Virus record (IMG/VR): IMGVR_UViG_3300035502_000495
Source of the DNA: a virus
Lineage: Duplodnaviria > Heunggongvirae > Uroviricota > Caudoviricetes
Strand: one strand, 5' to 3'
DNA: 64,000 bases
The notes under the pieces: generated by a model
Database searches by the model: none
What the model was told of the DNA's origin: nothing
Seen by the model: the letters and a program-made list of their open reading frames with translations, nothing else
In this document: positions 9,349 through 43,379 of the stretch, piece after piece
Position numbering within the stretch: the first letter of the stretch is position 1
How the letters are laid out: each line of letters opens with the position of its first letter
Position numbers and translations under genes: made by a program

Positions 9349-9846
9349 TCAATTTTTTATATTAATTCTTGTTAAAGTAGTATTATTTATAATTTTGGCA
9401 ATTTTAATTTTATTATTAGTAGCAAGTGCATCTGCAAGCTCATTTTCTAAAATTCCACAATGAGATTTACAATGGATTACTTGACAATTAAAAAAATCTA
9501 TAGTAAGATAATTATAAAGAGATTTAATTAAATCAATATTTTCTATTTGTTTCTTTTTGCTATTTATCCAATTATTTTTTGCCCATGAATATATCCATGA
9601 ATTACATATATTAACACAATATGCTGAATCTGAATATATTAAACAAGTTTCATTTTTAAATTTAGTTTGTGCTAATTCAAAAGCTAAAAGAATAGCTTTT
9701 AATTCAGCTTGATTATTAGTAATAAGAGGCTCTTGAACATTTTCACAATCAATTATTGTTTGAGTTTCTTTATCTTTTACTACAATGGCATAACCACCTG
9801 GACCAGGATTACCTTTACTACTTCCATCAGTATAAATTTCTATCAT
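9349..9846 (-). CDS. ribonuclease H
   Basis: MIEIYTDGSSKGNPGPGGYA... canonical RNase HI N-terminus; conserved D/E/D residues. Confidence 0.8.
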   Translation of the reverse strand: MIEIYTDGSSKGNPGPGGYAIVVKDKETQTIIDCENVQEPLITNNQAELKAILLAFELAQTKFKNETCLIYSDSAYCVNICNSWIYSWAKNNWINSKKKQIENIDLIKSLYNYLTIDFFNCQVIHCKSHCGILENELADALATNNKIKIAKIINNTTLTRINIKN

Positions 9847-19587: not shown

Positions 19588-20319
19588 TTAATTTTCATTA
19601 TATGTATAAAAATATTTTTCAACTTTTAATTCATCTAAATCAAATAATGCAGCAACTCCTGTTCTAAAAGAACACATATCTATATCAAATTTATGTCCTT
19701 CACAATAATTAATTACTTCTGTTTCATAATTAATCATAGGTTTATGTGAATAACGAGCTATAATGTTTAATTCATTTCCAAGATAGCCTACTGGAGTATG
19801 ACCATGAACTATATAAGTATTATTATCAAAATTCCACCCTTCATATATGTGGCTTCTATCCCATAAATATGGATTTTGTTTTCCTTGTAGATAATAATTC
19901 CAAGGAGTATATCCTTGTCCCTGATTTTCACAGTAGCCAGAATGGGTAAGGATAATTTCTTGTCCTTTTGTATTTATATATGTTTTCTTAATAGGAAGGT
20001 CAGATATTGCTATTGTAATATTATCTTGTTCTTCTGGTGATAGTTTATTAAAATCATCTATAGTATTTTTCCCACCATTATACATCCATAATGACATATC
20101 TTGCCAAGCAATAAATTCTTCATGGTTTCCTTGAAGATAAATTACTCTAGGGTCTGATAATAATTCTTTGATAATCTTTATTCCATCTGGACCTCTATCT
20201 GCGGCGTCACCTAAGAAATAAATAGTATCTGTATCATCACAATAATCTCTAATTTGTTTCCATAGGTCATACATTCCATGAAGGTCAGATACTGCATAGT
20301 GCTTGTTCATATTTATCAA
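19588..20319 (-). CDS. PPP-family Ser/Thr phosphatase-like metallophosphoesterase
   Basis: DLHGMYD, GDAADRGPDG, GNHEE, HGHT motifs. Confidence 0.7.
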   Translation of the reverse strand: MINMNKHYAVSDLHGMYDLWKQIRDYCDDTDTIYFLGDAADRGPDGIKIIKELLSDPRVIYLQGNHEEFIAWQDMSLWMYNGGKNTIDDFNKLSPEEQDNITIAISDLPIKKTYINTKGQEIILTHSGYCENQGQGYTPWNYYLQGKQNPYLWDRSHIYEGWNFDNNTYIVHGHTPVGYLGNELNIIARYSHKPMINYETEVINYCEGHKFDIDMCSFRTGVAALFDLDELKVEKYFYTYNEN

Positions 20320-20331
20320 CTCCTTTTGTTT

Positions 20332-20380
20332 TATATAAATATTATATCAAAATTTTAATTAAAAATCAATAAAAGTTTGT
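20332..20380 (-). promoter_or_regulatory. representative copy of conserved ~45-nt promoter motif (about 25 copies in window)
   Basis: Minus-strand reading CTTTTATTGATTTTTAATTAAAATTTTGATATAATATTTATATAAAA: TTGATT -35, 17-18 nt, extended -10 TGATATAAT, then conserved ATTTATATAAA; followed by AAGGAG RBS and ATG at 20319. Confidence 0.65.
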
Positions 20381-20427
20381 TATTGGGCAATCTTTTTTAT
20401 TTATATTAGCATCATTTTAAAAAATAT

Positions 20428-20456
20428 TTGACAAATAAACTTTTTCGTGTTATAAT
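20428..20456 (+). promoter_or_regulatory. consensus sigma-70 promoter for DGR target gene
   Basis: TTGACA - 17 nt - TATAAT exactly, about 40 nt upstream of the AAGGAG RBS and ATG at 20498. Confidence 0.65.
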
Positions 20457-20497
20457 ATAATTATGAAAAAGAACAGAGAAGAAAAGGAGAACTTTAT

Positions 20498-22162
20498 ATG
20501 GCAGATGAAAAAGTAATTTCATCTTGGGATAGCGGAGCTAATGACACTAATAATGATACTGTTGAGAGTTTAGCTAGAAGCGTTCAAGACTTAACTGTTC
20601 AGTTAATGGAGGTATCTAAAATAGTGGACGAAAATAATAGCTTTAATAGTTATATAAGTAAATCATATGCTTTACAAAGAACAGGTAAAGTATTTACAAC
20701 TAAATTTCCAAGATATGATATTTCTACTAGTTCAACTGGTATGAAGATGGATGATAATGAAAATATGGTTTGTACACCTTCCTCTCCTTCTACAAAAAAT
20801 AGAAATGATTATGAGAGTGAACCAATGTTCAAACCTATTGAATGTAATTGGGAATTAGATGATGAAACAGGTAAAATAATAATAACAGCACTTCAAGATA
20901 GTACAGACCCAGATAATAAATTTGCTCGTGATGGTTCAAATGGACAAGTGGGTATTTTAAATATGCCTTGGTATGCAAAGACATGGGAAGATGATTACTA
21001 TTGGTATATTTCAGTTAGTGATACAGGATATGATGGCTACACATTATTACAAGAATGTTTAGACCCAAGTGGTAATAATCAAGGATTTATGGTACATAGT
21101 AAATATGCTATGGTTGATATTGATGGTAAGCCTTATAGTGCAAGTGGAAGAAAACCTCTTGCTGGAGAAAATGCAACACTTAATACTACAGTTAAACCTA
21201 ATTTTAATAATTTAGTTGCTTATTGTAGAAAACATAATAATTACTACTGTGCGGAGACTAGTGCTGATTTATTCTTTATTCAATTACAAATAATGATAAA
21301 ATATGCTACAATAAATTCACAAAGTGTGTTAGGTGGATGTACAAGTTATAATTATACCTATCAATGTAGAGAATCTACTGAGAATGAGAATTATGCAATA
21401 TTAACAACAAGTAATGCAAATAATTTAGTAGTAGGTTCATATGTTTCTATTGGTACTATAAGTGGAGATAGATATAATACTACAAATCATGATGTTGTAT
21501 GGTCAGCAAAAATTCTTAGTATTAATGCTATTGAAGGAACATCAAATAGTAGAGTAACATTAGATACTGAAGCTTTTAGTACAGATGCTACGATGTTTAT
21601 GGTAACAATGCCTTGGTGGACAGGGGCTTGTGATAATGTACTAGGAATAGATGGCTCTGCGGGTGAATCGGCTACATCACAAAAATATCCAGTATTAATT
21701 GGTGGAATTGAATGTTTCTTAGGTGGATATGAAGTATTAGGTAATGTAATCATGGATATTCAAACTGTTGAAGATGCTACAGTTCAAAGAGATGTTTATA
21801 TTTGCCATGATGCAACTAAGATAAGCACTAATGTAACTACTATGAAAGCTAATAGTAAAAAGAGTGAATTTGTTATACCTGGTTATACAAATGGATATAT
21901 TTCTAAGCATAGTATTGATTTAAATAATAGCATTATGGTTCCAACTGAATTTAGTGCAACATCAAATACAGGATTTGCAGATTATATATACTTCGACCAA
22001 GGAACATCAGGACAAAGAGAATGGTTGGGGTTTGGCGCTCTGTACTATGGTACCGGTGCTGGTGCTTGGCTTCTGGCTGCGCACCATAGTCTCGGTACCT
22101 CGCACTGGGATATCCTGTCGCGTCTAAGCCCTAATGGAATGTGTAATAGTATTAACGCATAA
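20498..22162 (+). CDS. DGR target protein (receptor-binding-like) with C-terminal variable region
   Basis: 554 aa; C-terminal ~30 codons overlap the VR; tail ...GFGALYYGTGAGAWLLAAHHSLGTSHWDILSRLSP typical of a C-type-lectin/FGE-like VR scaffold. Confidence 0.8.
   Translation: MADEKVISSWDSGANDTNNDTVESLARSVQDLTVQLMEVSKIVDENNSFNSYISKSYALQRTGKVFTTKFPRYDISTSSTGMKMDDNENMVCTPSSPSTKNRNDYESEPMFKPIECNWELDDETGKIIITALQDSTDPDNKFARDGSNGQVGILNMPWYAKTWEDDYYWYISVSDTGYDGYTLLQECLDPSGNNQGFMVHSKYAMVDIDGKPYSASGRKPLAGENATLNTTVKPNFNNLVAYCRKHNNYYCAETSADLFFIQLQIMIKYATINSQSVLGGCTSYNYTYQCRESTENENYAILTTSNANNLVVGSYVSIGTISGDRYNTTNHDVVWSAKILSINAIEGTSNSRVTLDTEAFSTDATMFMVTMPWWTGACDNVLGIDGSAGESATSQKYPVLIGGIECFLGGYEVLGNVIMDIQTVEDATVQRDVYICHDATKISTNVTTMKANSKKSEFVIPGYTNGYISKHSIDLNNSIMVPTEFSATSNTGFADYIYFDQGTSGQREWLGFGALYYGTGAGAWLLAAHHSLGTSHWDILSRLSPNGMCNSINA
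22027..22123 (+). repeat. DGR variable repeat (VR)
   Basis: 97-bp match to TR 22683-22779 with 18 mismatches, all at TR adenines (A>G x6, A>C x9, A>T x3; the last is the final mismatch at VR 22124/TR 22780); GC-rich 3' end CTCGGTACCTCGCACTGGGATATCCTGTCGCG is IMH-like. Confidence 0.85.
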
Positions 22163-22183
22163 TCAAAAGGAGAATAAGAAAGT

Positions 22184-22498
22184 ATGATGTTACAATCACC
22201 AATTAAACAAAAAGAATTTGAATATTTCAAATTGCCTGATACAGATTATGCGGATGTTATTATTTGTCGTAATGAACAGGAAATTACTGATGAAAATGGT
22301 CAGTTAATGTATCAATATGATTGTAACCAATTTAGGACAGAATTAAGTAAAGAGACAATAGAATCAAATCTTGATTTTTATTTCTCTTTTACTCCAAAAA
22401 GCGATGTAGATTATCCTAAAGAATTGGCTACATTAGAACAAAAGTTAAATGATGCTCAATTAGCATTATGTGATATATATGAATTAATAAATATATAA
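22184..22498 (+). CDS. hypothetical acidic protein between VR and TR (DGR accessory candidate, not Avd-like)
   Basis: 104-aa ORF with AGGAGA RBS; acidic, unlike basic Avd. Confidence 0.4.
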   Translation: MMLQSPIKQKEFEYFKLPDTDYADVIICRNEQEITDENGQLMYQYDCNQFRTELSKETIESNLDFYFSFTPKSDVDYPKELATLEQKLNDAQLALCDIYELINI

Positions 22499-22519
22499 AA
22501 TTAATAGAGGATTTATTAT

Positions 22520-22633
22520 ATGGATAAAATATATGCAGATTTAATTTTAAAAGGACTAAAAACCATAGACGATGTACCTGCGTCTTTAAAAGAAAAGGTT
22601 CAAAAAATATTAGATGAAAGGAATTTGAAATAA
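22520..22633 (+). CDS. small ORF (37 aa)
   Basis: ATG with GAGGA-like RBS (aatagaggatttattatATG); MDKIYADLILKGLKTIDDVPASLKEKVQKILDERNLK. Confidence 0.25.
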   Translation: MDKIYADLILKGLKTIDDVPASLKEKVQKILDERNLK

Positions 22634-22682
22634 AGTTCTAAATAATTTAATATAATAAAATATACAAGGCTTTATAATTTGC

Positions 22683-22779
22683 GGGGTTTGGCAATCTGAA
22701 CAATGGTACCAATGCTGGTGCTTGGATTCTGAATGCGAACAATAGTCTCGGTAACTCGAACTGGAATATCCTGTCACGT
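22683..22779 (+). repeat. DGR template repeat (TR)
   Basis: Non-coding copy of VR carrying adenines at every mismatch position; lies about 260 bp upstream of the RT gene. Confidence 0.85.
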
Positions 22780-23042
22780 TTTCTTTGATACACTATAATT
22801 TTAACTAGATAATTTATTTAAACTTGATAAAATTATAAAGCGCCCTAAAGAGGTCTTAGCTTAGAGTATTTTACTCAAAATTCATTTAATTTTTGATTTT
22901 TTAACTTGAAAAAGTTAAAGCATGAAAATGCAATGAAGTTAGTAAATTATAATTTAGTTTTGTATATTTTCAATAAAAAGAATATTTTACAATAACCAAA
23001 TTATTTTTGAACACTTTATATCAAATCAAAGAGGATTATTTT

Positions 23043-24248
23043 ATGCACCATTCTTATTGTAAGAATGTAAACATTTTAGATAGGGAAGGTATTTATTTTT
23101 GTATTACTCAATGTTTATCTGATAAGTGGAATAGATATGATGTTATAAATTTCATTAATGAATATCTTCCTAGTTTTAGTAAAGATGAAGTTAGAAATAT
23201 TATTAAATATAATAGAGATTTTTTAAAAGGAACCTTATATACAATCGCGGATGTCCTCGCTTATGAGATTAAGACGCGGACGGTACATTTTAAACCTATT
23301 AAATATAAAGAGAAATATGATAGCAATTCTAAGAAAACTAGAGAAATAGGTGTCCAATCTATTAAACATCAATTATATGATTATATTGCAGTTTATTATG
23401 CAAGAGAAGTATGGGAGAAAAAGATTGGAGACTATCAATGTGCTTCAATGCCTGGTCGAGGTCAGGTATTTGGTAAAAAATTAATAGAAAATTGTATTAG
23501 AACTTTTCCTAAAAAGACGAGATTTGCAGTTAAAGGAGATATTAGAAAATGTTATCCTTCAATTAATACTAGAAGATTGAAAAAGTTATTAAAGAAAGAT
23601 ATAGATAATGAAGATTTACTATATCTTATTTTTTATTTAATAGACTCTTTTAAACAAGGATTGTCGATAGGTTCTTTTCTTAGTCAATATTTATGCAATT
23701 ATTACTTATCATTTGCTTATCATTATATAGAAACAAATTTAAGTCGTAATTATTATTTTATGTTATTTTATATGGATGACTTTATTCTTATAGCAGAAAA
23801 TAAATCTGAATTAGCTACGGCGATGATTAAGATAGTTCAATATTTTAAAGAGTATTTAGACTTAGAAGTTAAAAATACTTGGCAAATATTTCCAATAGAT
23901 TATTTTAGTAAAGATGGTAAAAGACGCGGTCGCGCAATAGATATGATGGGATATGTAATTTATAAAACTCATACAGAAGTTAGACCATGTATCTTTTTAA
24001 AGGCTAGACGATTATATATTTATACTTATATACATTACGGGCAATTTAATAAGAGAATACCAGAGAAATTAGCACATCAATGCATTTCTTATTATGGTTG
24101 GTTTGTAAATTCTAATTCAGAATGGTTTATTAGAGAATATAATGTAAAGAAATTAGTTCATATGTCTGAAGTTGCGGTATCTTATTATTCAAAGCAAAAA
24201 AATAATAGAGAATCTTTAAAACGAGATTCTCTATTTTTTTTATTCTGA
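23043..24248 (+). CDS. DGR reverse transcriptase
   Basis: FYMDDFILIAENKSELA (YMDD box), upstream QGLSIGSFLSQYLCNYYL finger/palm motifs; AGAGGA RBS before ATG 23043 (ORF track 23007 uses a TTG). Confidence 0.85.
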   Translation: MHHSYCKNVNILDREGIYFCITQCLSDKWNRYDVINFINEYLPSFSKDEVRNIIKYNRDFLKGTLYTIADVLAYEIKTRTVHFKPIKYKEKYDSNSKKTREIGVQSIKHQLYDYIAVYYAREVWEKKIGDYQCASMPGRGQVFGKKLIENCIRTFPKKTRFAVKGDIRKCYPSINTRRLKKLLKKDIDNEDLLYLIFYLIDSFKQGLSIGSFLSQYLCNYYLSFAYHYIETNLSRNYYFMLFYMDDFILIAENKSELATAMIKIVQYFKEYLDLEVKNTWQIFPIDYFSKDGKRRGRAIDMMGYVIYKTHTEVRPCIFLKARRLYIYTYIHYGQFNKRIPEKLAHQCISYYGWFVNSNSEWFIREYNVKKLVHMSEVAVSYYSKQKNNRESLKRDSLFFLF

Positions 24249-24379
24249 AACTAAATATTCATATCCTTGTTTTATTAAAATTTTTTTTACTTGTTCTTTT
24301 AATAAACGAGGAACATCATTAAAAGATTTAATACCTTTTATAACTTGCTCTGCCCATAGTTTACTCATTTCCGCACCTC

Positions 24380-24853
24380 TTATTCATAAACCAATTCACT
24401 CATTTCTAAAAGACAATTAGTAAGTTCTTGATTTCTAGCAATCAATTCTTCAATTGAAGTTTGCATTTCTGAATTAATTTGTTTTAATTCTTTATTAGTA
24501 TTTTCCATTTCTAAAACAGTTTTTCTTAATTGACTAACTTCAGCTCTTTCAGAAGTAGAATAATTATAAATTTCTTCCATATTTTGAGTATGATATTTTT
24601 TAACTGCGGCAACACTTGATATATCTTGCTGTGAGAACATTTTTTCTTTTAATGAAAGATATTCATATTCTGAAATTCCTAATAATACATACTCACTTAA
24701 ATCATAACAGACTTCCCCATCAGATGAAAGAACCTGAGTAGCTTCACTTTTATCGCATAATAATTTTAAATTATATTGTTCTTGAAGTTTAACATAGGAT
24801 GGGTCTTTTAGCAAATCAATGACTGTATTATTCTTAACTACTTTATACCACAT
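24380..24853 (-). CDS. hypothetical protein with C-terminal coiled coil
   Basis: 157 aa; last gene of structural block. Confidence 0.35.
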   Translation of the reverse strand: MWYKVVKNNTVIDLLKDPSYVKLQEQYNLKLLCDKSEATQVLSSDGEVCYDLSEYVLLGISEYEYLSLKEKMFSQQDISSVAAVKKYHTQNMEEIYNYSTSERAEVSQLRKTVLEMENTNKELKQINSEMQTSIEELIARNQELTNCLLEMSELVYE

Positions 24854-24909
24854 TATAATTCTCCTATTTTATATTAAAGGGTGCTTTTTAAAAAAACACC
24901 CTTTATTTT

Positions 24910-27900
24910 TTATTCTGTTGCAGACATTTCAATAGCAAAAGCACATGGAAAATATGAATAAGCTGGATAGCCTTGATTCCATTTACCATTCTTATCTACT
25001 GCACCAAAGCCGTTAGCATAATCAACATAAGTTGAACCTAACCAGTAGAACTCATTCTTTGGATTTAATGCTGTCTCTGGACGATGGCGGACACGAGAAT
25101 CATTTCCAGTAAATACTGAGAATGTAGAACCTTCTTTAGCATACACTGGATATTTATCTACGTCTGCGGCAATTGAAGTGACTTCCGCATTGTTTAAAAT
25201 CCATATTTTATCTTCTGTAGTTATAAATATATCTTCATCATTCATAGCTTTTAATTCTGCGGTTGAAGTTCCATCATCGCCATCATAGGTAATTTCTATA
25301 TCTGTATAATTACCTATAGAATTTACTCTCTTCTTTGGTGTTACTAAAGCTTGCATTAATCCTGGAAGCGAGTTATAAAACTCATCATTCGCGCGTTCAC
25401 GAAGTTCACTATAGAACCATCCGCCATTATTCCAAGATTCGCCTTTTAAGAATGTCTCAATTTTAACGACGCTTGAGTTAGATACTGGAATCCTTATAGA
25501 TACGTTTCCGCTTAATTCAGTAAAGCCAGCTTCATTGTATATTAATTCTCCATCAGTACTCTCAAACTCGATTCCGCTTGGTAAAGTTGCTCCCTTAGTA
25601 AAATCATAAGTTTTAGTTTGTCCACCTGTAGTAACTGTAATAGTTGTTAATAAAGGACGTCCTAATCTATCTATTGAATTAAATTGAGGAGCTAAAACTA
25701 TATAATCACTGTTTCCTGTGTATTCATATGTAAAGGTATCGCTATCTGCGTCAATTCCATTAATAGTATAGCAATAAGATTTTCTCTTTTGAGAGTTCAT
25801 CTGATATGCTTGAACTGAAGTATACGCTGGAAGTAAATCAATACCTTTTTGATTATCCATACTTATTAAAGTCCATAACGTACTTTCTTTTGTATTTAAT
25901 ATAGCACTCTTAGATTGTCCAAGAGTCCACCAATCAGATAAGTTTAATTTACCTGCGGTTGCCGCGTTTAGAACTGCATTAATTTCACCCCATGAGCAAC
26001 TTTGGAACTCTTTTTTACTTGCTGGTAATGTTACTTTAGAAGTAACTGCAAAACATAATGTTGTACCTATTATATTTTGTATAGTTAAAGTTTCATTAGT
26101 ATCTAATTCTTCAAAGTTAGGAGGAATAATTGTGCTTTCATCTCTCCAACCATCTGTTTTAACTACAGTCCATCCGCCTTTTAACCAAGTACCAGATTCA
26201 TCTTCCAATGGGTCAGGTATAGTATTCATATCGACATCTCCGCCATAACTAATTGCAGTTGTATTTTTACCTTCCTCATCTCCAGTAATACTGTAGTAAG
26301 GGGTATAAGCACTTGGGTTAGCCGCAAATGTTTCATAATCTTCTTTAAAGAAGTAAACATTGTAATGTCTTGCTACTGCGTCATAAGTTGCGGTTAATAT
26401 TCTATCCTCAGTAACATTCATATAACTATTACTCCAAGAATTATAATAATAATTATATTTAGAGTCACTAGGTTTCTTTGGTGTATCTATTTTTATGTTA
26501 TTAGCGTCTACTGTTGTAATTGGGTCGTATCCATCTGAACCTTTAATGACTGTATATTCTGCTAAAACTGAATTATCATAATTCCTAAATGATAATGTAT
26601 AAAGTGTCTTATTAAATAAGAAACTTAAACTAGGGAATTGTTTTCTATATTCAGCTAATGTTGATTCTTTAATTGTTTCAATTTCTACTGTACCAGTTAC
26701 ATATGAATTGGTTGAAGAAGTTGCTAAAGAACCTGATTCAGTAATACCTTTACATTTCTTTAATATATCAAATGTATCAGAGCCATCTCCGCTTAATATC
26801 CAATAAATATCAAGCAATCTAACAGAAGTTAAATTGACACTATTATTAATAATATTAACTAATAATTGGTCAGCAGTTGTAGATAAATATTCTGCTGTAA
26901 TACTTGATAAACTATTATAACCTTGTAATGTTAAAGTTTTTAATTGTTGTAAGTATTGCAGTTTTAAGTTAGTTATTGTAGCTGGCAATTTCATAATTTG
27001 AATATTACTATTAGAAGCTAATGTTACAGAAGGAACATTAGTATTCTCAGCATAGAAATATTTTAATGCTGTACAACCAGAAATACCAATTGTTGTATTT
27101 AAATAAATTAATCCTGTTATATCAATTGTATTAATTAAATCAGAGTTAAATGAAATACTTGTACCTGCTTGCCAAGCTTGGTTTTGGTATCCTTCAATCT
27201 GGCTTCCCGCGATAATTCTTTGTAACTTTGATGCTCTTGATATATCTAACCAACTTAAATAGCAAGCTGATAAATCTCCAATGTCAGTCAAGAGAGAAGC
27301 ATTGTAGATATAAGTTTCAACACCACCTGAACCAGTCTCACCGAATGTTGGTGCGGTCATTGTTACAGCTTCACCACGTTTAGCTTTTATCTTTTGATAA
27401 TCACCATTACCATATTTTACTAATACATACATATCTGAATATGGAGTAATAGTTAAATCTTGGTTAGGTGGAACTATATTTGGTGAATTATATGTATCAG
27501 TTGCGGAAGGCTTGGTAATACGCATCTGAATCGCGTCTGATATTACTGTAGGTCCATTGTATTTAGAACTCATATAACGGTCTTGATAGAATAAGAACCA
27601 GTCTCTTTGAAGGTCTTTATTTCCTAACATCATTGAGATATAAGTTCTATCATTGTAATCTACATATGGATTAATATATTTCTTGAACATATCTTCAATC
27701 CATATAGCCTCCGGCCATTCGTCCTGATGAGATTTAAATTTAGCACTTAATCTCTCTGCGTTAAAAGCACCTTCACTCTCTTTAACTGTAACCATGTTAG
27801 AAATTTCAGTAGCGAAACATTTAGCTAAATTTATCCATAATACAGATTCTTCACCACCATATGATTGGCTACCATCTCTATATTCAACACCATAGCTATG

Positions 27901-30900
27901 GCTTAAACGACCGATGTTATCAATACCAAGAGCAGTATCGTTATCATAGTCATTTTTGAAGTGCCAATGAATACCATCATCTGTTGCCATGAATACGTTC
28001 TTTGCGCGGTTATCTACCATTAAATGACGTTCAGTAAATATATATAACCAAATTGCAGAATCTAAAATGAAATAATCTTCAAATTCTGCTTTGAACTTTG
28101 CTAATCTATATTCTGCGGTATCCTTGTTATAAGTTACTCCATTGTAAACTACTGGAGTAATAGAAGCATCGGTTGCCGCAGTTGTATCAGTTGATTTTAC
28201 CCAACTTACAACACGATGTAAGTTATCTATATCAGTTTGAGTATATCCTTTTTTAGGGAATCTAAATTCAAATCCATCTTCCCACTTATCATCGCTAAAA
28301 TCATCTTCTTTAAATACACAATATAAAGATTCATTAGTTAAGAACTCAACACAACATTGTTGAGGATATTTATCTCTGTTTTGTCCAAATACATCATAAT
28401 TAATTTTATCATTGTTCATATTGAACTTTCCATAAAATTGAGTTGTAGTATATTTGCTTCCGCTAGAGTCGTTATGGAATACTATAATAGGTTGACCTTC
28501 AATGGTACCACGAATCTTATTTGTATATCCTTGGTTCTTTAATTCAGTAACTAATTCACTTCTCTCTGTTTCTCTATTGTGCTTAGGTTCATATCCTTTA
28601 GCGGCTGCCGCGTCTAAAAGTTCATCAAGCTGAGGGTCTGAAACATAAGGGTCGTATAAATTATATTCATCTGTTAAAATAACGTTATTAGCGCCTTCTG
28701 ATGAAGCAACGTCCGCCTTTAAACAGAAGTAATCAACTGGAATACTATTAGATGACATAGCAAACGTTGATTCTTTTGTACCAGACTCACTATAATTAAA
28801 ACCGTCTACTTGGAAGTCTACATTTAAGTTTAATGCAGCTCTACCATAACCAGCAGATGAGGTACCTTGCATACCAATACCAACGTTATTACTTGTAAAA
28901 TTTTTTTTACTATTATCTGGGTCATAGTACGCAATTGTTCCTTTAATAGGAGGATTTGCTCTATCTTTTATTTTAACTTGAGGGAAAATATAATCATATT
29001 GACTTGCATCAGAAGTAATAATCATATATTTAGTTTTTAATTTATCTAAAACAATATTATGGTAATCATCATAAATATCATTTCTTTGGTATCTTTCTAC
29101 CATTTCATCTGAATTTGGAGCATCTAAAATAAAGTTATTTAAGATTTCATATTGATTTAAAACTTTATTATAAGTTTTAATTAAATAAATATCTAAATCA
29201 CATTCACTAGAACCTAAACTAAGTGTTTGTAAATTTTCTTGTACAAAAGTATCAGTTGCTTCATAGATTGATGCTGAACATGGGATACCTTGTAGATACC
29301 ATAAAATTAAACTATTTTGAGTAGAAGGATAAATTACTAAGTCCATTTCAATATAAGAATCTTCCTTATAAGGAACTTCCATTTGAATATCACGAGAATT
29401 AAATATACCTTTATTTGCATAAAGAGTTAATCCAATTCCTTGTCTCTTCTCACTCTCTAAATCATCATTTGTATTATCATAACAATCAATTATTTTTGTA
29501 TCATAGTTAATACTATTTTTACATCTAAAAATAATCTTAATTGATTTACCAGTATTTTTAAAATCAGTTGAGAATAATTTTAAAGGAATAGTAACTTTTT
29601 CACTACTAGCCTTAATTCTCATAACTGAGTTTCCATCGCTATCAACCTGCCAGCCGCCATTAACCCAGTCAAAAGTACTTGGGAAAGATGCTTTATAAGT
29701 GCCTCCTTCCGCAGTTGATGATTGCCATACATTATAATTACTTTGTGAATTACTTCTACCTGTTGTTGTAAATTCTGCCTCTAAACTATTTGTAATTGGG
29801 GAAGCACTAATATCAAGAGGTTCAACAGATAAATTAAATTCTCTATATCTAGTTCCAACATAAATTCTTAATCTGTAATCGTCTGTTGTAGTAAATTTTA
29901 AAGTCCAATATTGTAAAGTTCTATCAGGATTAATAGATGAATTAATAGTAAATTCTTCTGTATTTTTATTAAATGCTTCTAGTCTACAGTTTCTACTAGT
30001 TGAGCTTGTGCTAGAAGTATAAGTTGGGTCCCAAATTAAATATGGGATAGTAACGTTATCATATTGCTTTACTGTTGTTTCATTAAAAGAAGAAGCTATA
30101 ATTGGAGTAGAACTACTTTTATTAACAAAGATAATTTCATAATATAATACATTGCTTGTTAATTCTGTTCCATTTACTGTTGCAGTTACATATACTGTTA
30201 AAGGATATGCGCCATGTGCTTGATAAGGAATTGTCTGTGTAGAAATACCTCCCGATGAAGTAGTTGTAACAGTTTTTATTTCTTGACCATTTAAAATAAA
30301 GTGAACAGTTTTTTCAAATGTACCGCCAGCGGTTACTGTATATGTAAAAGTTGCATCATCATAGTATGCAGTATAAGCATCAAAAGTAGATGTTAATTCA
30401 AGAGAAACAGTGGTAATAGTCCATCTTAAAGTTCTAACACTACCAGTATTATCAGTTAAGATAACTTGAACAGAATTAGTTCCTCTACCTAATAATGATG
30501 AAACATCATATTCATAATCACCTTGAGCTACATTAGTATCTTGGTCTGCGCGGACGCCATTGACATTAAGCACCATAGAGCCAGGTCCTGTAGATGAATT
30601 ATCATCTGCATAAATAGAGGACCATCTAAAAGCAATCTTTATATTAGTATCACCATAAATTGCAGTAAATGATGATTCATTGATATAAGTCATTTTAAAT
30701 GTCGTACCTGCGCTACTTCCACCGCCGCCTGTCCCAGTAATAGTAATAGTACCTAAAGGATTAGCGTCTCCTTTTTTATACCAAGCTAATTCACTTGTAG
30801 TTTCATCAAATTCAATATCTAAATCTTCTAGTGCATTTAGATTTGCTACTGTATTGGAAAGAGTCGCAAGGTCATCCGCAGATGCATAATTAGCTAAAAG

Positions 30901-38714: not shown

Positions 38715-39124
38715 TTATTGGCATATTTTTTATACGGTATATGCCTTACCGCTGCCACCATTACGCACTGACTATGCGGAAGATTTCTCTTCATTGACTT
38801 TTACTATAACAACCCAAAGTCATTAAGGCGGTTATAAGGTTCGCTACTCACTCTAGCGCGTCACTCTCTTCAAAGAATATTTCCGAATATCTTTAAGTTT
38901 GTTTAAGCCAACCAAGTGACGAGGAAATATTAATGCCATCTCTAAAACTATCCTACAATGCCAGTTTCATAATAACTAACACACGCTTTCTTTCAGTTCA
39001 TGGATTAGAACCAAGATATTGTTTTACTTCATCTCTTGTTTTGAAGTATCATGATATAAAAGTTAGACCAAGTAGACTCTTACTTGTGGTAGAGCTTGTT
39101 AACAATCTCTATAAATCTAACTAG

Positions 39125-39206
39125 TGGGCAGAGAAGGACTCGAACCTTCGATGTTTCTGATGTCAGGATTTTACAGACCCCTACCCTCGCCGCTAGGTTA
39201 CCTGCC
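39125..39206 (-). tRNA. tRNA-Tyr (GUA), type II
   Basis: Acceptor GGGCAGG/TCTGCCC, D arm ACC-TAGCGGCGAG-GGT, anticodon loop CTGTAAA identical to E. coli tRNA-Tyr, T arm GAAGG-TTCGAGT-CCTTC, A73. Confidence 0.65.
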
Positions 39207-39537
39207 CAAGTATATTGGGGAATTATCCCCTGACTTAGTTTTACGGACTAAATCTTCGAGACTGCGCAGTCTCCGCCGTGTTTTCTTTAAAGTCTATATT
39301 CCTTCAAGACTTGGTTCTTATTTATGTCCTCCCCATATGGCAGGTTTTCTTAAATGGTTTCCTCATTATCCCAGTGCATTTATATACCGAGCTGAGATTG
39401 ACGCGGTTGGAATCCTATTCTTTATCATTAGATTGCCATCTAACTAGAGCTTGTACTTCGCTCTCCCAATTACTTCACATTCTAATTGGTAAGACGTTAT
39501 TGAACCTTGGAAGGAGCGACCTTCTCATATCAATAAA

Positions 39538-39606
39538 TTCTGATGCTGGACTCGAACCAGCGGTTTCGGGGCTACCGACGTTTTATCCCATTAAACTAAT
39601 CAGACT
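39538..39606 (-). ncRNA. aberrant tRNA-like element (acceptor + D arm + T arm, non-canonical anticodon arm)
   Basis: T arm GCTGG-TTCGAGT-CCAGC, 6-bp acceptor GTCTGAT/ATCAGAA, D stem GTTT/AAAC, but the middle folds only as CGGT-AGCCCCGAA-ACCG (9-nt loop, no variable region); promoter motif copy upstream at 39710-39765. Confidence 0.4.
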
Positions 39607-40403
39607 TTAAACAGATTATGCTACCTTCTCCCATCTGTTATGGAACCAACTAGTTTTTATTTTATAAACTATTTTAAATAAATAAAATAGAACTCGTTTA
39701 ATTTTTTCTTTTTATTATATAAATATTATAATATATATTTTATTAAAAATCAATTAAGAATTGTAGCAATTTTTTTATAACAGAAAACTGCTAAAAACTG
39801 AGAAAGTGGAAAGAAAAAGTAATAAATTATTTTAATAAAATCCTACATACCTACAGACGAAGATTATAACTTCATTTTATTTTAATAATACGTGCTATTT
39901 ACACTAGTCTGTTTTATGGAACGATTTTATTTAAATTGTGCAATACCAGTATTTGCACCACGGTATTCAGGCACCCGTGTTTTCGTCGACTCTGGATATC
40001 CTGCCTTCATTCGTCATTATTTAAAAGGAAAAGAAAATGACAACCAAACCTACATTCACCGATATTTCGGAATATATCCTCTTGATATATTAAGTCACTC
40101 TTGTTCTGGGAAAGAGAACCTTCGACAGAATTTACTTATCTCTATTCTAGTTTCGAAATAAGCATCATTCTATCTATTGCTACGCATCAGAATTGAACTG
40201 ATTTAACCAAGCTTATGAGGCTCGGTGAGATATCCAACCTCCCGCCAGCTATATTTAATTTGATTATTTTGTATGTCAAGCAATGTTATCATCATAAAAG
40301 TTATTTTCTAACCACGTTTACTTTCAAATTGCGTTAAGTCTTTAACTACCTTTGCTTAATAAAGGTGCTATTATTAAATAGCTGTTGGTTGACAAAGCCA
40401 AAT

Positions 40404-40475
40404 AGCGTGTATGGGATTCGGACCCATGTAACTACCTTGAAGGGGTAGCTTCTGACACCACTCGAATAACACGCC
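40404..40475 (-). tRNA. tRNA-Glu (UUC)
   Basis: Acceptor GGCGTGT/ACACGCT, anticodon stem CTACC/GGTAG loop CCTTCAA, T arm ATGGG-TCCGAAT-CCCAT (C55). Confidence 0.6.
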
Positions 40476-40909
40476 AGATTAATGGCACTTTATTTTATAA
40501 GGTGTGCCTACCTTAAAAAGAGAGGGTTAAACAAAAATTTTTCTGTCTGTATTGCTCTTGTAAGATTTGAACTTACATTAAAGTAATAAACTTTTGTCTT
40601 ATCATTAAACGAAAGAGCATTTGCAAGTGCCTCGAAGAGAGCTGCTAAAAATCTAGGCTTTGATATTTGGACTTGCAATCTTTGGGGTAATGTCTTATGC
40701 TTGAGCTGCATTACCCCACCTTCTAAAAAACATTTTATTTATTTATCTTATATAAATATTATATTATATTTTTTTAATAAAATCAATTAAGAATATTATC
40801 TTCCATGAAAGTAATATAGCCTTCGAGTCAGCCAACTGCCAATTTATTGGATTTCAGTGCGTTTATTATTCCTCCCGCACACTTTGGATGACCTATTATC
40901 TAGGTAAAC

Positions 40910-40982
40910 TGGGAAGGTGGGGCTTGAACCCACGACACCACGATTAATCAAAAATTAAGATTTGAACTTAAACCAATTCCCA
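40910..40982 (-). pseudogene. degenerate tRNA-like element (5-nt anticodon loop)
   Basis: Perfect T arm GTGGG-TTCAAGC-CCCAC and 6-bp acceptor TGGGAA/TTCCCA, D stem GTTT/AAAT, but anticodon arm TTAAT-TTTTG-ATTAA; overlaps 3' end of HNH gene. Confidence 0.35.
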
Positions 40983-41585
40983 TTGTTCATCAGTAAAATT
41001 ATTTATATCTTTTTTTCTACTTGGTAAATTTTCAGTTTTACACCATTTAGTAATTGCTTTATCACTAACTCCATATTGTTCTCCTATCTTTGTAAAAGGA
41101 ACTGTTCTAATAAGATGTTTTAAAGTATCTCTATCTGGTCTTTCAACTATTCGAGATTGTTTTTTATAACAATCTTCACATAAACCACTTTTAGAATATC
41201 TTGTAATTTCCTTGCCGCAATTTGAACAAAAATACATTTTTTTATTTTGCAATTGTCCTTTATTTTCTCTTAATTGATTAGCAATATCTTCATTATAAAC
41301 TTTATACTTATATAATTCTTCCTCAGAAAAAAGTTTATCGTGAATTTCTCTATGGCAATTTGCACAAACTAAAATACATTTTTTTATTTCTGCTAAATCT
41401 TTTTCTAAATCATGGCAAGTTCCATTAGAAGAAATACCATATAATTTTTCTTCAGCATTGATATGATGAAATTCTAAAGCTGAATTAGTTTTATGATAAC
41501 CACATATATTACACTGATTACCACATACCTTAATTAAATTATCTTTTCTTCTTCTTCTATAATTACTTGTTTCTGTTGCACCCAT
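40968..41585 (-). CDS. HNH endonuclease (homing-endonuclease-like) with C-terminal HTH
   Basis: VCGNQCNICGYHK...LEFHHI...VCANCHREIH HNH motif; AAAGGAG RBS before internal Met at 41585 (ORF track start 41681 overlaps a tRNA fragment). Confidence 0.65.
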   Translation of the reverse strand: MGATETSNYRRRRKDNLIKVCGNQCNICGYHKTNSALEFHHINAEEKLYGISSNGTCHDLEKDLAEIKKCILVCANCHREIHDKLFSEEELYKYKVYNEDIANQLRENKGQLQNKKMYFCSNCGKEITRYSKSGLCEDCYKKQSRIVERPDRDTLKHLIRTVPFTKIGEQYGVSDKAITKWCKTENLPSRKKDINNFTDEQWELV

Positions 41586-41680
41586 ATTTTTCACTCCTTT
41601 ATTTTTCATACTGTATATGAAAAATAAACCGATATGATTAATTACTGTTGTCCAATGTTCATTTATGCTACTTAACACCA

Positions 41681-41720
41681 TTTTTGCACAGTCGTGTGCT
41701 CATACCAACTGAGCTACATC
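41681..41720 (-). pseudogene. tRNA 5'-half fragment (acceptor + D arm only)
   Basis: Minus strand GGGATGT-AG-CTCA-GTTGGTA-TGAG-C... then no pairing anticodon or T arm; lies between two promoter motif copies and the HNH gene. Confidence 0.4.
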
Positions 41721-41943
41721 CCAAAATTTCAAACAAGACACTTTATTTTTAAATTAAATTAATAACTATTACTTTTAAATATAAATTTGATATTCTTTTT
41801 AAAAATTGCAGTATGTGTCTTTATTTTTTCTTTTGTTTTATTATATTAATATTATAATATAATTTTTTATTAAAATCAATTAAGCACTTTTGATAAATTA
41901 TTTTTTTCTTTTTGTTTATATAAATATTATAACAAAAATTTTT

Positions 41944-42273
41944 TTAAATTTCAAATATTTTATAATTATAATGAAGAAGCAATTCTTTAATATTTTTATA
42001 TCCAACTAGATTAAAACTATGGCACTCAAAACCATCAATTTTAATATTATTTGCAACAATATACTTTGCTAAATCATATCCAGTCTTTTTTCCGCCTAAA
42101 TCATGGTCAAAAGCTACAAAAACAGTTCCATCTAGCTTATTATCTTTAACTTTATCTAACCAATCTTTGGCTTGATTATAAGTTTTACAAATTATTATTT
42201 CTTCAAAAACTGATTTCATCTTCTCTGGAACTGCTCTTTCATCATCAATCCATAATAAATATTTCCATTTCAC
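41944..42273 (-). CDS. CheY-like receiver (REC) domain protein, stand-alone
   Basis: YLLWIDDE... acidic pocket, FDHDLGG, conserved Lys; 109 aa. Confidence 0.35.
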   Translation of the reverse strand: MKWKYLLWIDDERAVPEKMKSVFEEIIICKTYNQAKDWLDKVKDNKLDGTVFVAFDHDLGGKKTGYDLAKYIVANNIKIDGFECHSFNLVGYKNIKELLLHYNYKIFEI

Positions 42274-42356
42274 ATAATCACTTCTTTCTTTTCTTTATAT
42301 AAATATTATATCAAAAATTTTATATAAAATCAAAAGAAAGAAAATAACTAAATATT

Positions 42357-42941
42357 TTATTTAAATTGATGTTGCTCTATTTGAAGGCGACAACCTTTTA
42401 CTCGTCTGCTAAAAAAATAATAATCATTCATTTCATAATAATTATTATTATAATATATTAAAGTATTTCCTTCTAAAACATACATAGCTGCCTCTAAACA
42501 TTCTTCTGGCAATTCCCCATTATCATATAGTTTTAATGCTTTATTTAAATTTCCGTCTGTTACAGGAGTAAATTGACCAGATTGATAAATTACATCATGG
42601 ATTGAGTTTTCAAAAATCTCTGAATTAACTCTATTCATAACCACAATACCTACAGCTTGCTGTCCAGCTTCGCATTGATTGCCAGCTTCCGCATAAATAA
42701 TTGATGCCATATATCTTAAATCTTCTGCATCAAAATCAACTTCCTCTTGTTCTGTATTTTCTTCTATTGTTTCTTCTTCATTAGTTTCTATTTCTATTAT
42801 TTCTTCTTCTTCAAAAGCAGTATCTTGTATTAAAGATTGAAAATCTACTACTTCTATTTGTAAATCTTGTGTTGGCAAGGGATTAAATAATGATAACACA
42901 AAACTCATTACATTAATTCCTAAAAAGTATTTAATTTTCAT
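42357..42941 (-). CDS. secreted SleB-like cell-wall hydrolase (Hydrolase_2 family)
   Basis: Signal peptide; YMASIIYAEAGNQCEAGQQAVGIVVMNRV...IYQSGQFTPVTDG matches SleB motif ArvIyaEA...gq.aVa.VvlNRv...QFs. Confidence 0.6.
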   Translation of the reverse strand: MKIKYFLGINVMSFVLSLFNPLPTQDLQIEVVDFQSLIQDTAFEEEEIIEIETNEEETIEENTEQEEVDFDAEDLRYMASIIYAEAGNQCEAGQQAVGIVVMNRVNSEIFENSIHDVIYQSGQFTPVTDGNLNKALKLYDNGELPEECLEAAMYVLEGNTLIYYNNNYYEMNDYYFFSRRVKGCRLQIEQHQFK

Positions 42942-43338: not shown

Positions 43339-43379
43339 ATATAATACCTCCTTAAAAGTATTACATAATAATCACTCCT

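What the first reader, a model, noticed from the sequence alone, without database searches (positions are those of the whole stretch)
20428..24248. Complete diversity-generating retroelement with adenine-specific VR/TR mismatches
A 97-bp variable repeat (VR) sits at the 3' end of the 554-aa gene (22027-22123). A near-identical template repeat (TR) lies 560 bp downstream (22683-22779). Within the 97-bp repeat, all 17 mismatches fall where the TR has A (VR shows G, C or T); an 18th A-to-C change sits just past the repeat at VR 22124/TR 22780. A YMDD-box reverse transcriptase gene follows (23043-24248). This is the diversity-generating retroelement (DGR) mutagenic-homing signature. The target is driven by a perfect TTGACA-17-TATAAT promoter. 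It lies head-to-head with the late structural block (start 20498, about 4.4 kb from the giant fibre gene's 24910 end), so it is probably a hypervariable receptor-binding protein. The ORF between VR and TR (22184-22498) is acidic and does not look like Avd, so the accessory component may be novel or absent.
Basis: seen in the sequence. Interest (0 to 1): 0.8.

Follow-up and report, generated by a model that had tools for sequence, protein, structure and literature searches.

The report
Avd-less phage diversity-generating retroelement
This is a real, complete and probably active diversity-generating retroelement that rewrites the tip of a tail-protein-like gene in a ~140-kb gut phage; it is a good new example of a well-known system, of the known subtype that lacks the usual Avd helper protein.

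Summary
The core observation holds. A 97-nt repeat (VR 22027-22123, TR 22683-22779) differs only where the TR has adenine. Chance probability is about 2e-11.

The reverse transcriptase (23043-24248) belongs with DGR enzymes. It carries the IGSFLSQ signature and YMDD, and Bordetella bRT is its best solved relative by about 29 bits over group II intron enzymes.

The 554-aa target models best onto a solved DGR variable protein (TaqVP).

Two related contigs carry the identical TR but different VRs. All 42 VR/TR mismatches across the three VRs sit at TR adenines, which argues for activity in this lineage.

ORF104 and a 37-aa CD1375-family ORF lie between VR and TR. They are not DGR accessories. The same pair follows the target homologue in a relative with no RT or TR, and follows the RT in smaller prophages.

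No Avd or HRDC was found. This matches the known accessory-free architecture A (29% of DGRs in Wu et al. 2018).

The neighbourhood is nucleic-acid and tRNA metabolism, not a late structural block.

Verdict: a new member of a known kind, of modest interest.

The parts
20428..20456 (+). Sigma-70/sigma-A consensus promoter, TTGACA-17-TATAAT with TG extension, presumed to drive the whole cassette
   Evidence: Read directly. It is the only 12/12 match in 20300-24400 and one of 7 perfect matches in the window against 0.08 expected. Function is inferred, not shown.
20498..22162 (+). DGR target gene (554 aa), a tail/baseplate-type variable protein
   Evidence: phrog_17147 6e-93 and phrog_5302 'tail protein' 1e-17. 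803 homologues, some named 'Baseplate component' or 'BppU N-terminal domain' by their sources. AlphaFold model pTM 0.79. Best PDB fold match is TaqVP, a DGR variable protein (5vf4, E 1e-6, prob 1.0, TM 0.31/0.42).
22027..22123 (+). Variable repeat (VR), encoding residues about 510-542 of the target
   Evidence: 15 of 15 mismatches to the TR fall at TR adenines. 60% GC against 29.6% for the window. Homologue clusters are hypervariable at exactly these codons.
22184..22498 (+). ORF104: small acidic protein linked to the target/fibre gene. It lies inside the cassette but is not a DGR accessory.
   Evidence: pI 4.15. Model has 4 beta strands plus 2 helices, not a four-helix bundle. No PDB fold match below E 0.07. 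BFVD matches are all uncharacterised phage proteins. 64% identical to an ORF that follows the target homologue in the DGR-less relative L056. Homologous (4e-11) to an ORF that lies after the RT in L011.
22520..22633 (+). ORF37: CD1375-family small protein, partner of ORF104. Not DGR-specific.
   Evidence: NF040910 43.5 bits against a cut-off of 22.5. phrog_1382 1e-14. 52% identical to the paralogue at 24240-24368 on the minus strand. 64% identical to the corresponding ORF in DGR-less L056.
22683..22779 (+). Template repeat (TR), non-coding. It holds 25 A: 10 AAY codons, 4 single-A codons and 1 synonymous A in the VR reading frame.
   Evidence: Identical over 108 nt in L005, where the flanks are only 93-97% identical.
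22842..22876 (+). Conserved element in the TR-RT spacer: two short putative hairpins (GCC...GGU at 22842-22854; GAGU...ACUC at 22864-22876). Candidate RT-binding or priming RNA.
   Evidence: Conserved block in the alignment of window, L006, L007 and L010. 100% of cells paired and 2 compensatory pairs, but only 5 sequences and 61 of 500 shuffles do as well. Suggestive only. No Rfam family matches.
23043..24248 (+). DGR reverse transcriptase (401 aa)
   Evidence: RVT_1 2.5e-10. phrog_1423 3.5e-66. bRT (8ub7_A) is the only PDB hit for the single sequence (4e-14). It is also the top profile hit, 66.7 bits against 37.9 for group II intron RTs. Motifs IGSFLSQ, YMDD and the equivalent of bRT Arg74 are present.
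24204..24235 (.). Bidirectional intrinsic-terminator-like hairpin at the convergence of the DGR operon and the 2144-aa gene operon
   Evidence: 13-bp stem followed by a T run on both strands; inverted repeat I6.

Best explanation
This is a functional diversity-generating retroelement of the accessory-free type (target - TR - RT), carried by a ~140-kb AT-rich phage whose relatives' contigs come from human gut/faecal samples.

Proposed mechanism (inferred by analogy with Bordetella phage BPP-1):
1. A transcript, probably starting at the consensus promoter at 20428, covers the target gene, two small genes linked to the target/fibre gene, the TR, a 263-nt spacer and the RT gene.
2. The RT copies the TR RNA into cDNA and misincorporates opposite template adenines.
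3. The cDNA replaces the VR at the 3' end of the target gene.
4. This recodes 10 AAY codons and 4 single-A codons. It allows about 1.5e14 protein variants and can never create a stop codon.
5. The recoded residues lie in the C-terminal ligand-binding part of a tail/baseplate-type protein, so phage receptor specificity is diversified.

No Avd or HRDC helper is encoded nearby. The enzyme presumably works alone or with the conserved spacer RNA element.

Shown: the anatomy, the A-specificity, the RT clade, the target fold match, and VR turnover among relatives that share one TR.
Inferred: the transcript, priming, the homing steps, and the receptor-binding role.
For: - VR/TR repeat with 15 of 15 mismatches at TR-A, P about 2e-11; 14 of 15 at codon positions 1 or 2.
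- Three independent VRs (window, L004, L005) against one identical TR give 42 of 42 mismatches at TR-A. All 16-18 pairwise VR-VR differences are at TR-A positions. 22 of 25 TR adenines are seen to vary. There are zero changes at the 72 non-A positions, although the flanking gene sequence is only 94.5% identical.
- In a cluster at 58% identity, all 15 members read differ from one another in the VR segment, at the same set of columns, between otherwise conserved flanks.
- RT: IGSFLSQ matches the DGR signature [I/V/L]GxxxSQ described in PMC7826257. The profile's best PDB match is bRT at 66.7 bits, against 37.9 bits or less for group II RTs. Scores lie far below the NCBIfam cut-offs for group II maturase (48 vs 300) and retron RT (21.5 vs 235).
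- The target model's top PDB fold hit is the DGR variable protein TaqVP.
- All 25 IMG/VR RT-relative loci in which a VR/TR pair was detected, plus L045, show A-biased mismatches (74-100% at TR-A). L006, L007 and L008, fetched through the target protein, show the same.
- The accessory-free architecture is a described class: 29% of DGRs (PMC5758913).
Against: - No direct evidence of retrohoming in this genome. Four further assemblies (L001-L003, P0123) carry the same VR as the window, so no within-population heterogeneity was seen.
- No GC-rich hairpin follows the VR (z = -0.6).
- Almost no 3' homology remains beyond the last variable A (3 nt), unlike the Bordetella IMH.
- No Avd was found. Avd is essential in the only mechanistically studied DGR.
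- Only 64 kb of a ~140-kb genome could be screened for a helper acting in trans.
- The CLec-fold assignment rests on a moderate model (mean pLDDT 73.5; the VR region scores 53-80) and a low TM-score (0.31/0.42).
- The receptor-binding role is by analogy only.
Confidence: 0.88

Rival explanations
1. A fossil DGR. The cassette was active in an ancestor, which explains the VR differences among relatives, but it no longer diversifies in this phage.
For: The same VR is present in all assemblies that carry this exact protein (L001-L003, P0123). No Avd, no post-VR hairpin and no extended IMH-like homology were found.
Against: The RT ORF is intact, with all catalytic and signature residues. The TR is 100% conserved over 108 nt and the VR has zero non-A changes, while the flanks diverged by about 5.5%. 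That pattern implies recent resetting by homing. The operon keeps a perfect promoter, ribosome-binding sites and a terminator.
Confidence: 0.08
2. ORF104 and/or the CD1375-family ORF37, which sit between VR and TR where avd normally lies, are novel DGR accessory proteins that replace Avd.
For: They occupy the avd position in the window and in L005, L007, L008, L054 and L055 (ORF104 homologue only in L006). Avd is absent.
Against: The same pair (64% identical each) follows the target homologue in L056. That relative has no RT hit anywhere in the 10.6-kb locus (4.5 kb on each side) and no TR-like repeat. In L011 the homologous pair lies after the RT, and VR and TR are only 234-270 nt apart (offsets across the L011 group) with no ORF between them. 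A paralogous pair follows the undiversified 2144-aa gene. ORF104 is acidic and has a beta+alpha fold, unlike basic four-helix Avd.
Confidence: 0.05
3. An Avd-like or other helper acts in trans, encoded in the roughly 76 kb of the phage genome outside this window or by the host.
For: Only 44 ORFs of 70-200 aa in this window were screened. The window's exact target protein is on a contig of 139,648 bp.
Against: In the relative loci whose ORFs were inspected (L011, L045), target, TR and RT lie directly adjacent with no avd, and VR-to-TR offsets of only 233-270 nt across the L011 group leave no room for one. Wu et al. report that profile searches found no avd elsewhere in genomes with avd-less cassettes (PMC5758913).
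Confidence: 0.07
4. It is not a DGR at all: a group II intron or retron-type RT that happens to lie next to a duplicated gene fragment.
For: NCBIfam's best-scoring (sub-threshold) model is group II RT/maturase (48 bits). PADLOC generic RT and DRT models give weak matches.
Against: All those scores are far below family cut-offs. There is no Rfam intron or retron RNA in 20000-25000. bRT outranks group II RTs by about 29 bits. The signature is IGxxxSQ, not QGxxxSP. The A-restricted mismatches have P about 2e-11 and recur in relatives.
Confidence: 0.01

Closest known systems
Bordetella phage BPP-1 DGR (mtd-avd-TR-brt), the prototype
   Same: The gene order is target with a 3' VR, then TR, then RT, all on one strand. 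Mutagenesis is adenine-specific and the TR is rich in AAY codons. The RT is homologous to bRT (E 2e-17 by profile) and keeps the equivalents of bRT Arg74, Ile181 and Gln187 plus YMDD. The target is a phage tail-type protein with a C-terminal variable region.
   Different: There is no Avd. No GC-rich hairpin follows the VR. Homology ends 3 nt after the last variable A rather than in an extended IMH. Two unrelated small genes linked to the target gene lie between VR and TR. The RT is about 70 aa longer than bRT. Target sequence similarity to Mtd was not tested; no Pfam family matched the target.
Architecture A (accessory-free) DGRs of Wu et al. 2018 (PMC5758913)
   Same: The core is TR-RT with an adjacent upstream target and no avd, HRDC, MSL or CH1 gene. 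The paper reports 29% of 372 DGRs with this layout and infers Avd-independent homing. The closest RT relatives here (L011 group, L045) show the plain target-TR-RT form.
   Different: In the window two non-DGR genes are sandwiched between VR and TR, giving a 559-nt gap. I could not place this RT in the paper's lineages, because no reference tree was available.
TaqVP, Thermus aquaticus DGR variable protein (PDB 5vf4; PMC6328139)
   Same: It is the best structural match of the target model, at Foldseek E 1e-6 and probability 1.0. TaqVP is a C-type-lectin-fold DGR variable protein with a C-terminal VR.
   Different: Only 11-12% identity, TM 0.31/0.42 and rmsd about 11 A. The window protein is longer (554 vs 381 aa), has an N-terminal helical segment, and comes from a phage.
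DGRs of gut Firmicutes phages (Faecalibacterium phage FP_Epona, Lactobacillus phage LBR48, Butyrivibrio phages) and unannotated human-faecal phage contigs (MT835469 and others)
   Same: These hold the nearest RTs in GenBank phage records, at 30-37.5% identity. The faecal contigs also hold target homologues at 25-35% identity. DGR-rich gut phages are well documented (PMC11792537, PMC6199706).
   Different: There is no close relative among deposited phages: no megablast hit. Faecalibacterium phage targets are reported to use DUF6273 or Mtd-like domains. This target matches no Pfam family.

Membership tests
Diversity-generating retroelement (DGR) | A TR/VR repeat pair whose mismatches are restricted to adenines of the template copy | tested here: met
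   15 of 15 in the window, P 2.1e-11. 42 of 42 over three VRs that share one TR.
Diversity-generating retroelement (DGR) | Reverse transcriptase of the DGR clade with motif [I/V/L]GxxxSQ (instead of QGxxxSP) and YxDD | tested here: met
   IGSFLSQ and YMDD are present. The motif definition comes from PMC7826257. bRT is the top PDB hit by 29 bits over group II RTs. No full phylogeny with reference sets was run.
Diversity-generating retroelement (DGR) | VR lies in the 3' part of a protein-coding target gene, and TR adenines sit mainly at codon positions 1 and 2 (AAY codons) | tested here: met
   VR encodes residues about 510-542 of 554. There are 10 AAY codons. 14 of 15 mismatches are at codon positions 1 or 2. 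No stop codon can be generated.
Diversity-generating retroelement (DGR) | TR is invariant while VR varies among closely related genomes (evidence of mutagenic homing) | tested here: met
   L005's TR is 100% identical to the window's, and its VR differs at 17 positions, all TR-A. L004's VR differs at 16, all TR-A. The flanks are 94.5% identical. Protein clusters are hypervariable at the same codons.
Diversity-generating retroelement (DGR) | Variable protein with a C-type-lectin (or Ig) fold displaying the VR | tested here: met
   The top PDB fold match of the model is TaqVP (E 1e-6, prob 1.0), but TM is only 0.31/0.42 and model pLDDT is 73.5. No Pfam CLec or FGE-sulfatase hit.
Diversity-generating retroelement (DGR) | Accessory protein Avd (or HRDC, MSL, CH1). 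Present in most DGRs but not all, so not strictly defining. | tested here: not met
   No Avd (23S_rRNA_IVP) or HRDC Pfam hit among 44 window ORFs of 70-200 aa. ORF104 is acidic and not a helical bundle. 74% of DGRs have avd and 29% have no accessory gene (PMC5758913).
Diversity-generating retroelement (DGR) | IMH/IMH* elements and a GC-rich hairpin or cruciform 3' of the VR (Bordetella-type target recognition) | tested here: not met
   Folding of 22095-22200 is no better than shuffles (z -0.62). Homology ends 3 nt after the last variable A. The relative L011 does have a GC hairpin after its target stop codon.
Diversity-generating retroelement (DGR) | Demonstrated cDNA synthesis from TR RNA and its transfer to the VR | not testable with these tools
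   Needs reads from the source sample or an experiment.
Avd (accessory variability determinant), as a possible identity of ORF 22184-22498 | A ~128-aa, strongly basic (mean pI 9.5) four-helix-bundle protein that forms pentamers | tested here: not met
   pI 4.15, charge -12.5. The model has 4 beta strands plus 2 helices. Foldseek against the PDB gave no match better than E 0.07, and none of the 50 listed matches was an Avd chain. No Pfam or NCBIfam hit.
Group II intron RT/maturase or retron RT (rival identities of the RT) | Score above the family cut-off, a maturase/X domain, and an associated intron or msr/msd RNA | tested here: not met
   TIGR04416 scores 48.1 bits against a cut-off of 300. 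The retron St85 RT model scores 21.5 against 235. No Rfam match in 20000-25000 at E <= 1.
CD1375 family (ORF 22520-22633) | Match to NF040910 above its cut-off | tested here: met
   43.5 bits against a cut-off of 22.5. The paralogue at 24240-24368 scores 15.3 bits, below that cut-off, and matches Pfam CD1375-like at 22.9 bits, below its gathering score of 27.

The most novel reading that the evidence does not exclude
This RT clade carries out Avd-independent mutagenic retrohoming with a minimal two-part machine. The parts are the RT and a TR RNA whose conserved downstream element (two short hairpins at 22842-22876) replaces the Avd-dependent RNA scaffold of Bordetella. The target is recognised with almost no 3' homology beyond the variable tract. 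That would be a mechanistically distinct and very compact (~1.6 kb) diversifier. Within one phage family it comes with natural DGR-plus, DGR-minus and TAG-recoded relatives for comparison.
Probability: 0.4. Interest if true: 0.55.

Novelty: new member of a known kind. Interest (0 to 1): 0.35.

Why it matters
DGRs in gut phages, including ones without Avd, are already catalogued in large numbers. The existence of this one does not change the picture.

Its value is as a clean study case.
- Avd-independent homing has been inferred from genomics (Wu et al. 2018), but every mechanistic study I read here concerns Bordetella bRT-Avd.
- This element is compact. It has a clear TR, a conserved spacer element and an intact RT.
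- It sits in a phage family that offers built-in controls: relatives with the same TR but different VRs, a relative with the target gene but no DGR, and relatives that read TAG as glutamine inside the RT signature motif.
- If reconstituted, it could show what replaces Avd and how the target is recognised without an IMH-like 3' homology.
- It could also serve as a small tool for targeted hypermutation.

Tried and rejected
- Megablast of the cassette against GenBank phages found no match.
- Rfam on 20000-25000 at E <= 1 found nothing.
- Pfam and NCBIfam gave nothing for the target or ORF104. PADLOC gave nothing for them either, and only sub-family RT matches for the RT.
- I looked for a Bordetella-type hairpin after the VR. 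Folding was no better than shuffles.
- I searched the whole window, both strands, for further VRs matching the TR at non-A positions. None was found.
- I considered ORF104 as a new accessory protein. I rejected it after finding it next to the target homologue in the DGR-less L056 and after the RT in L011.
- ORF104 and the 157-aa ORF after the giant gene are not detectably similar to each other. Each, however, matches part of the L011 145-aa ORF.
- I tried to enlarge the set of spacer sequences with DNA-pattern scans of viral and metagenome contigs. Only one or two relevant contigs came back, and the other hits look like chance. The covariation test therefore has 5 sequences and is not significant, with 61 of 500 shuffles as good.
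- Translations of L006 and L007 failed at first because of in-frame TAG codons. I treated these as recoding rather than pseudogenes, because TAG sits at the invariant Q of IGSYLSQ in L007 where L008 has a standard Gln codon (translated Q).
- The weak precomputed DUF6273 hit on the giant protein was not reproduced at E <= 0.1.
- I did not find the PDB code 8ub7 in the paper library. I identified the chain as bRT from its length and from residue numbering (I181...Q187) that matches PMC7826257.

Full report
OBSERVATION

A 97-nt direct repeat lies at 22027-22123 and 22683-22779. I tabulated the mismatches position by position. In all 15 the downstream copy has A and the upstream copy has G, C or T.

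The downstream copy has 25 A in 97 nt. The probability that 15 mismatches all fall on A is 2.1e-11. Fourteen of the 15 are at codon positions 1 or 2 of ORF 20498-22162.

In the VR reading frame the template copy reads GFGNLNNGTNAGAWILNANNSLGNSNWNILSR. It has ten AAY codons, four codons with a single A, and one synonymous A. A-to-N mutagenesis could therefore give about 1.5e14 protein variants and can never make a stop codon. Both copies are GC-rich islands (60% and 46%) in a window of 29.6% GC. No other sequence in the window matches the template at its non-A positions.

The promoter is as described: TTGACA at 20428, a 17-nt spacer, TATAAT ending at 20456, with TG just upstream of the second hexamer. 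This perfect pattern occurs seven times in the window against 0.08 expected. It is therefore the phage's standard strong promoter type and is not special to the cassette.

THE REVERSE TRANSCRIPTASE

ORF 23043-24248 (401 aa, with AGAGGA 8 nt upstream of the ATG) matches Pfam RVT_1 and PHROG 1423 "reverse transcriptase" at 3.5e-66.

Against all PDB sequences, the single protein's only significant hit (4e-14) is 8ub7 chain A, of 328 aa; the only others, two 'Uncharacterized protein' chains (4lgj_A, 4lgi_A), come at E 0.26-0.84. That chain's numbering places I181 and Q187 at the ends of IGSLTSQ. This is exactly what is published for Bordetella bRT (PMC7826257), so I take the chain to be bRT.

A profile built from five RTs of this clade scores bRT at 66.7 bits (E 2e-17). 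The next hits are group II intron RTs at 37.9 bits or less.

The window enzyme has IGSFLSQ, which is the DGR signature [I/V/L]GxxxSQ rather than the QGxxxSP of intron and retroviral enzymes. It also has YMDD and the equivalent of bRT Arg74.

It scores far below the NCBIfam cut-offs for group II maturase (48 vs 300 bits) and retron RT (21.5 vs 235). No Rfam RNA family matches anywhere in 20000-25000.

THE TARGET

The 554-aa protein matches no Pfam family. It belongs to PHROG 17147 and, more weakly, to PHROG 5302 "tail protein". It has 803 homologues, many from Blautia genomes and gut metagenomes. A few are named "Baseplate component" or "BppU N-terminal domain-containing protein" by their sources.

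An AlphaFold model built from 61 homologues has pTM 0.79 and mean pLDDT 73.5. Its three significant PDB matches are all chains of TaqVP, the Thermus aquaticus DGR variable protein (E 1e-6, probability 1.0, TM 0.31/0.42). This supports a DGR-type C-type-lectin variable protein. The low TM-score means the fold assignment is moderate, not strong.

EVIDENCE OF ACTIVITY FROM RELATIVES

The window's protein is in the public collection exactly (P0121), on contigs up to 139,648 bp. The phage genome is therefore about 140 kb.

Two contigs from other samples, L004 and L005, carry a target gene that is 94.5% identical in DNA upstream of the VR. L005 also carries the TR, and it is 100% identical to the window's over 108 nt.

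- The three VRs differ from the TR at 15, 14 and 13 positions. All 42 are at TR adenines.
- The VRs differ from each other at 16-18 positions, all at TR-A sites.
- 22 of the 25 template adenines are seen to vary.
- None of the 72 non-A positions differs, although about four changes would be expected from the divergence of the flanks.

This is what repeated TR-to-VR copying with adenine mutagenesis predicts.

At greater distance, in a 58%-identical cluster of 112 sequences, all 15 members read differ from one another in the VR segment, at the same set of columns, between otherwise conserved flanks. A VR/TR pair was detected in 25 of the 38 loci fetched with the RT from IMG/VR, and separately in L045. 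In every one the mismatches are A-biased, 74-100% at TR-A.

I saw no heterogeneity for this exact strain. Four further assemblies carry the same VR.

THE GENES BETWEEN VR AND TR, AND THE MISSING AVD

ORF104 (22184-22498) is acidic: pI 4.15, charge -12.5. Its model has four beta strands followed by two helices, not a four-helix bundle. No PDB fold matches it better than E 0.07. Its only significant structural relatives are uncharacterised phage proteins of about 105 aa.

A paralogue, 52% identical, lies at 24240-24368 on the minus strand. It comes just after a 157-aa ORF that follows the 2144-aa gene.

Three observations show that this pair belongs to the target/fibre gene and not to the DGR.

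1. In L056, a 135-kb relative, the target homologue has an ordinary, non-variable C-terminus. No RT hit was found anywhere in the 10.6-kb locus (4.5 kb on each side) and no TR-like repeat. The homologue is still followed by ORFs 64% identical to ORF104 and to ORF37.
2. In the L011 group of smaller prophage-like contigs, VR and TR are only 234-270 nt apart with nothing between them. The homologues of ORF104 (BLASTP 4e-11) and of the CD1375-like ORF lie after the RT.
3. A similar pair follows the 2144-aa gene, which is not diversified.

I screened 44 further window ORFs of 70-200 aa against Pfam. No Avd (23S_rRNA_IVP) or HRDC match appeared. The RT is only about 25 aa longer than bRT at the N terminus and about 30 aa at the C terminus, so it has no fused extra domain.

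Avd-less cassettes are a described class. Wu et al. found no accessory gene in 29% of 372 DGRs ("architecture A"). They found no avd elsewhere in those genomes and inferred Avd-independent homing (PMC5758913). The absence of Avd is therefore real as far as I can test, but it is not new.

OTHER ANATOMY

- No terminator-like site lies between the promoter at 20428 and a bidirectional hairpin at 24204-24235, at the end of the RT gene. One transcript probably covers the whole cassette. This is an inference.
- There is no GC-rich hairpin after the VR (z = -0.6). Homology ends three bases after the last variable adenine. That adenine does vary, because L004 keeps it. Bordetella-type IMH and cruciform signals are therefore not evident.
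- The 263-nt TR-RT spacer contains a block conserved in the window, L005, L006, L007 and L010 (GCCCTAAAGAGGTC...TAGAGTATTTTACTCAAAATT, about 22840-22885).
- In that block, two short hairpins at 22842-22854 and 22864-22876 are paired in all five sequences and each has one compensatory change. With five sequences this is only suggestive: 61 of 500 shuffles do as well. I propose it as the counterpart of the Bordetella spacer RNA that positions priming. This is inference only.

CONTEXT

The window is not a late structural block. It encodes both topoisomerase II subunits, RNase H, a Thg1-like tRNA-His guanylyltransferase, an RNA ligase, kinases and phosphatases, a cell-wall hydrolase and 14 tRNAs.

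The cassette is the only plus-strand operon in the 4-39-kb stretch around it. It diverges from a metallophosphatase gene and converges on the operon of the 2144-aa protein. That protein matches only PHROGs of unknown function. The only support is the accessory pair it shares with the target.

The nearest RTs in GenBank phage records are unannotated human-faecal contigs at 37.5% identity or less. Next come Faecalibacterium, Lactobacillus and Butyrivibrio phages at about 30-35%.

VERDICT

This is a genuine, complete and probably active DGR of the known accessory-free type, in an undescribed ~140-kb gut phage. The corrections are 15 mismatches rather than 17, no extra A-to-C site, the wrong neighbourhood, and an accessory that is absent rather than novel.

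It is a new member of a known kind. Its interest lies mainly in being a compact natural model for Avd-independent homing, with unusually good comparative controls.

Noticed in passing
window 34507-44050 (minus strand), with 16140-16970, 32627-34096, 41944-42273, 48045-49262, 12514-13035: 14 tRNA genes lie among RNA-repair and tRNA-metabolism genes: a Thg1-like tRNA-His guanylyltransferase, a phrog_850 'RNA-binding protein', a cREC_REC domain protein, an RNA ligase and an AAA_33 kinase. It looks like a phage tRNA supply-and-repair island.
   Followed up: partly
L006 5001-8980; L007 7601-8803; L008 7606-8808: Sister phages (RT 55-57% identical) have in-frame TAG codons in DGR genes: 10 in the L006 RT. 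In L007 one sits at the invariant Q of the IGSYLSQ signature, where L008 has a standard Gln codon (translated Q). This indicates TAG-to-Gln recoding in those relatives. The window's own genes are intact under the standard code, and TAG ends 9 of 59 long ORFs.
   Followed up: partly
window 307, 3686, 20428, 61842, 63575, 63729, 63911: There are seven perfect TTGACA-N17-TATAAT promoters, all with TG two bases before the -10 hexamer, against 0.08 expected by chance. Six cluster at the two ends of the window near small ORFs. The seventh drives the DGR cassette.
   Followed up: partly
window 9349-9846 (minus strand): The phage encodes an RNase H (Pfam RNase_H, 2e-27). It is probably a replication function. 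It could in principle also remove TR RNA from the cDNA hybrid.
   Followed up: no
L007 7238-7330; L008 7245-7336: The TR of these relatives has TAG in the VR reading frame where the VRs have TGG or other codons. In a TAG-recoding phage this makes the possible codon outcomes at that site unusual.
   Followed up: no
L056 4501-6117 and protein cluster P0013/P0152-P0165: DGR-less homologues of the target have a fixed C-terminus. They show one strikingly polymorphic residue (DPAY[G/D/S/Y/I/N]QGQ) among otherwise near-identical sequences. This is unexplained.
   Followed up: no
window 24910-31344 (minus strand): The giant 2144-aa ORF matches only PHROGs of unknown function. A weak precomputed DUF6273 hit was not reproduced at E <= 0.1. 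DUF6273 is reported as the VR-bearing domain of Faecalibacterium phage DGR targets (PMC11792537). Here no TR-like sequence lies in the gene.
   Followed up: partly
window 44892-45437 and 49266-49820 (minus strand): Two paralogous ORFs of 181 and 184 aa share long identical stretches (…HPCTC[V/I]HID.NDYFFSFDEIF…). Their function is unknown. I saw them in the translations.
   Followed up: no
L011 4585-4602 and 196-1509: In the small-prophage relatives a GC-rich hairpin (GAGGGGCTGTCCCCTC) follows the target stop codon, like the Bordetella post-VR hairpin that the window lacks. A 437-aa ORF that I take from its CxxxCxxC motif to be radical-SAM/SPASM-like (not family-tested) lies upstream of the tail genes.
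   Followed up: no
window 24204-24235: A bidirectional terminator-like hairpin (13-bp stem with T runs on both strands) lies inside the last codons of the RT gene, just 3' of the convergent 42-aa ORF's stop (24240).
   Followed up: no
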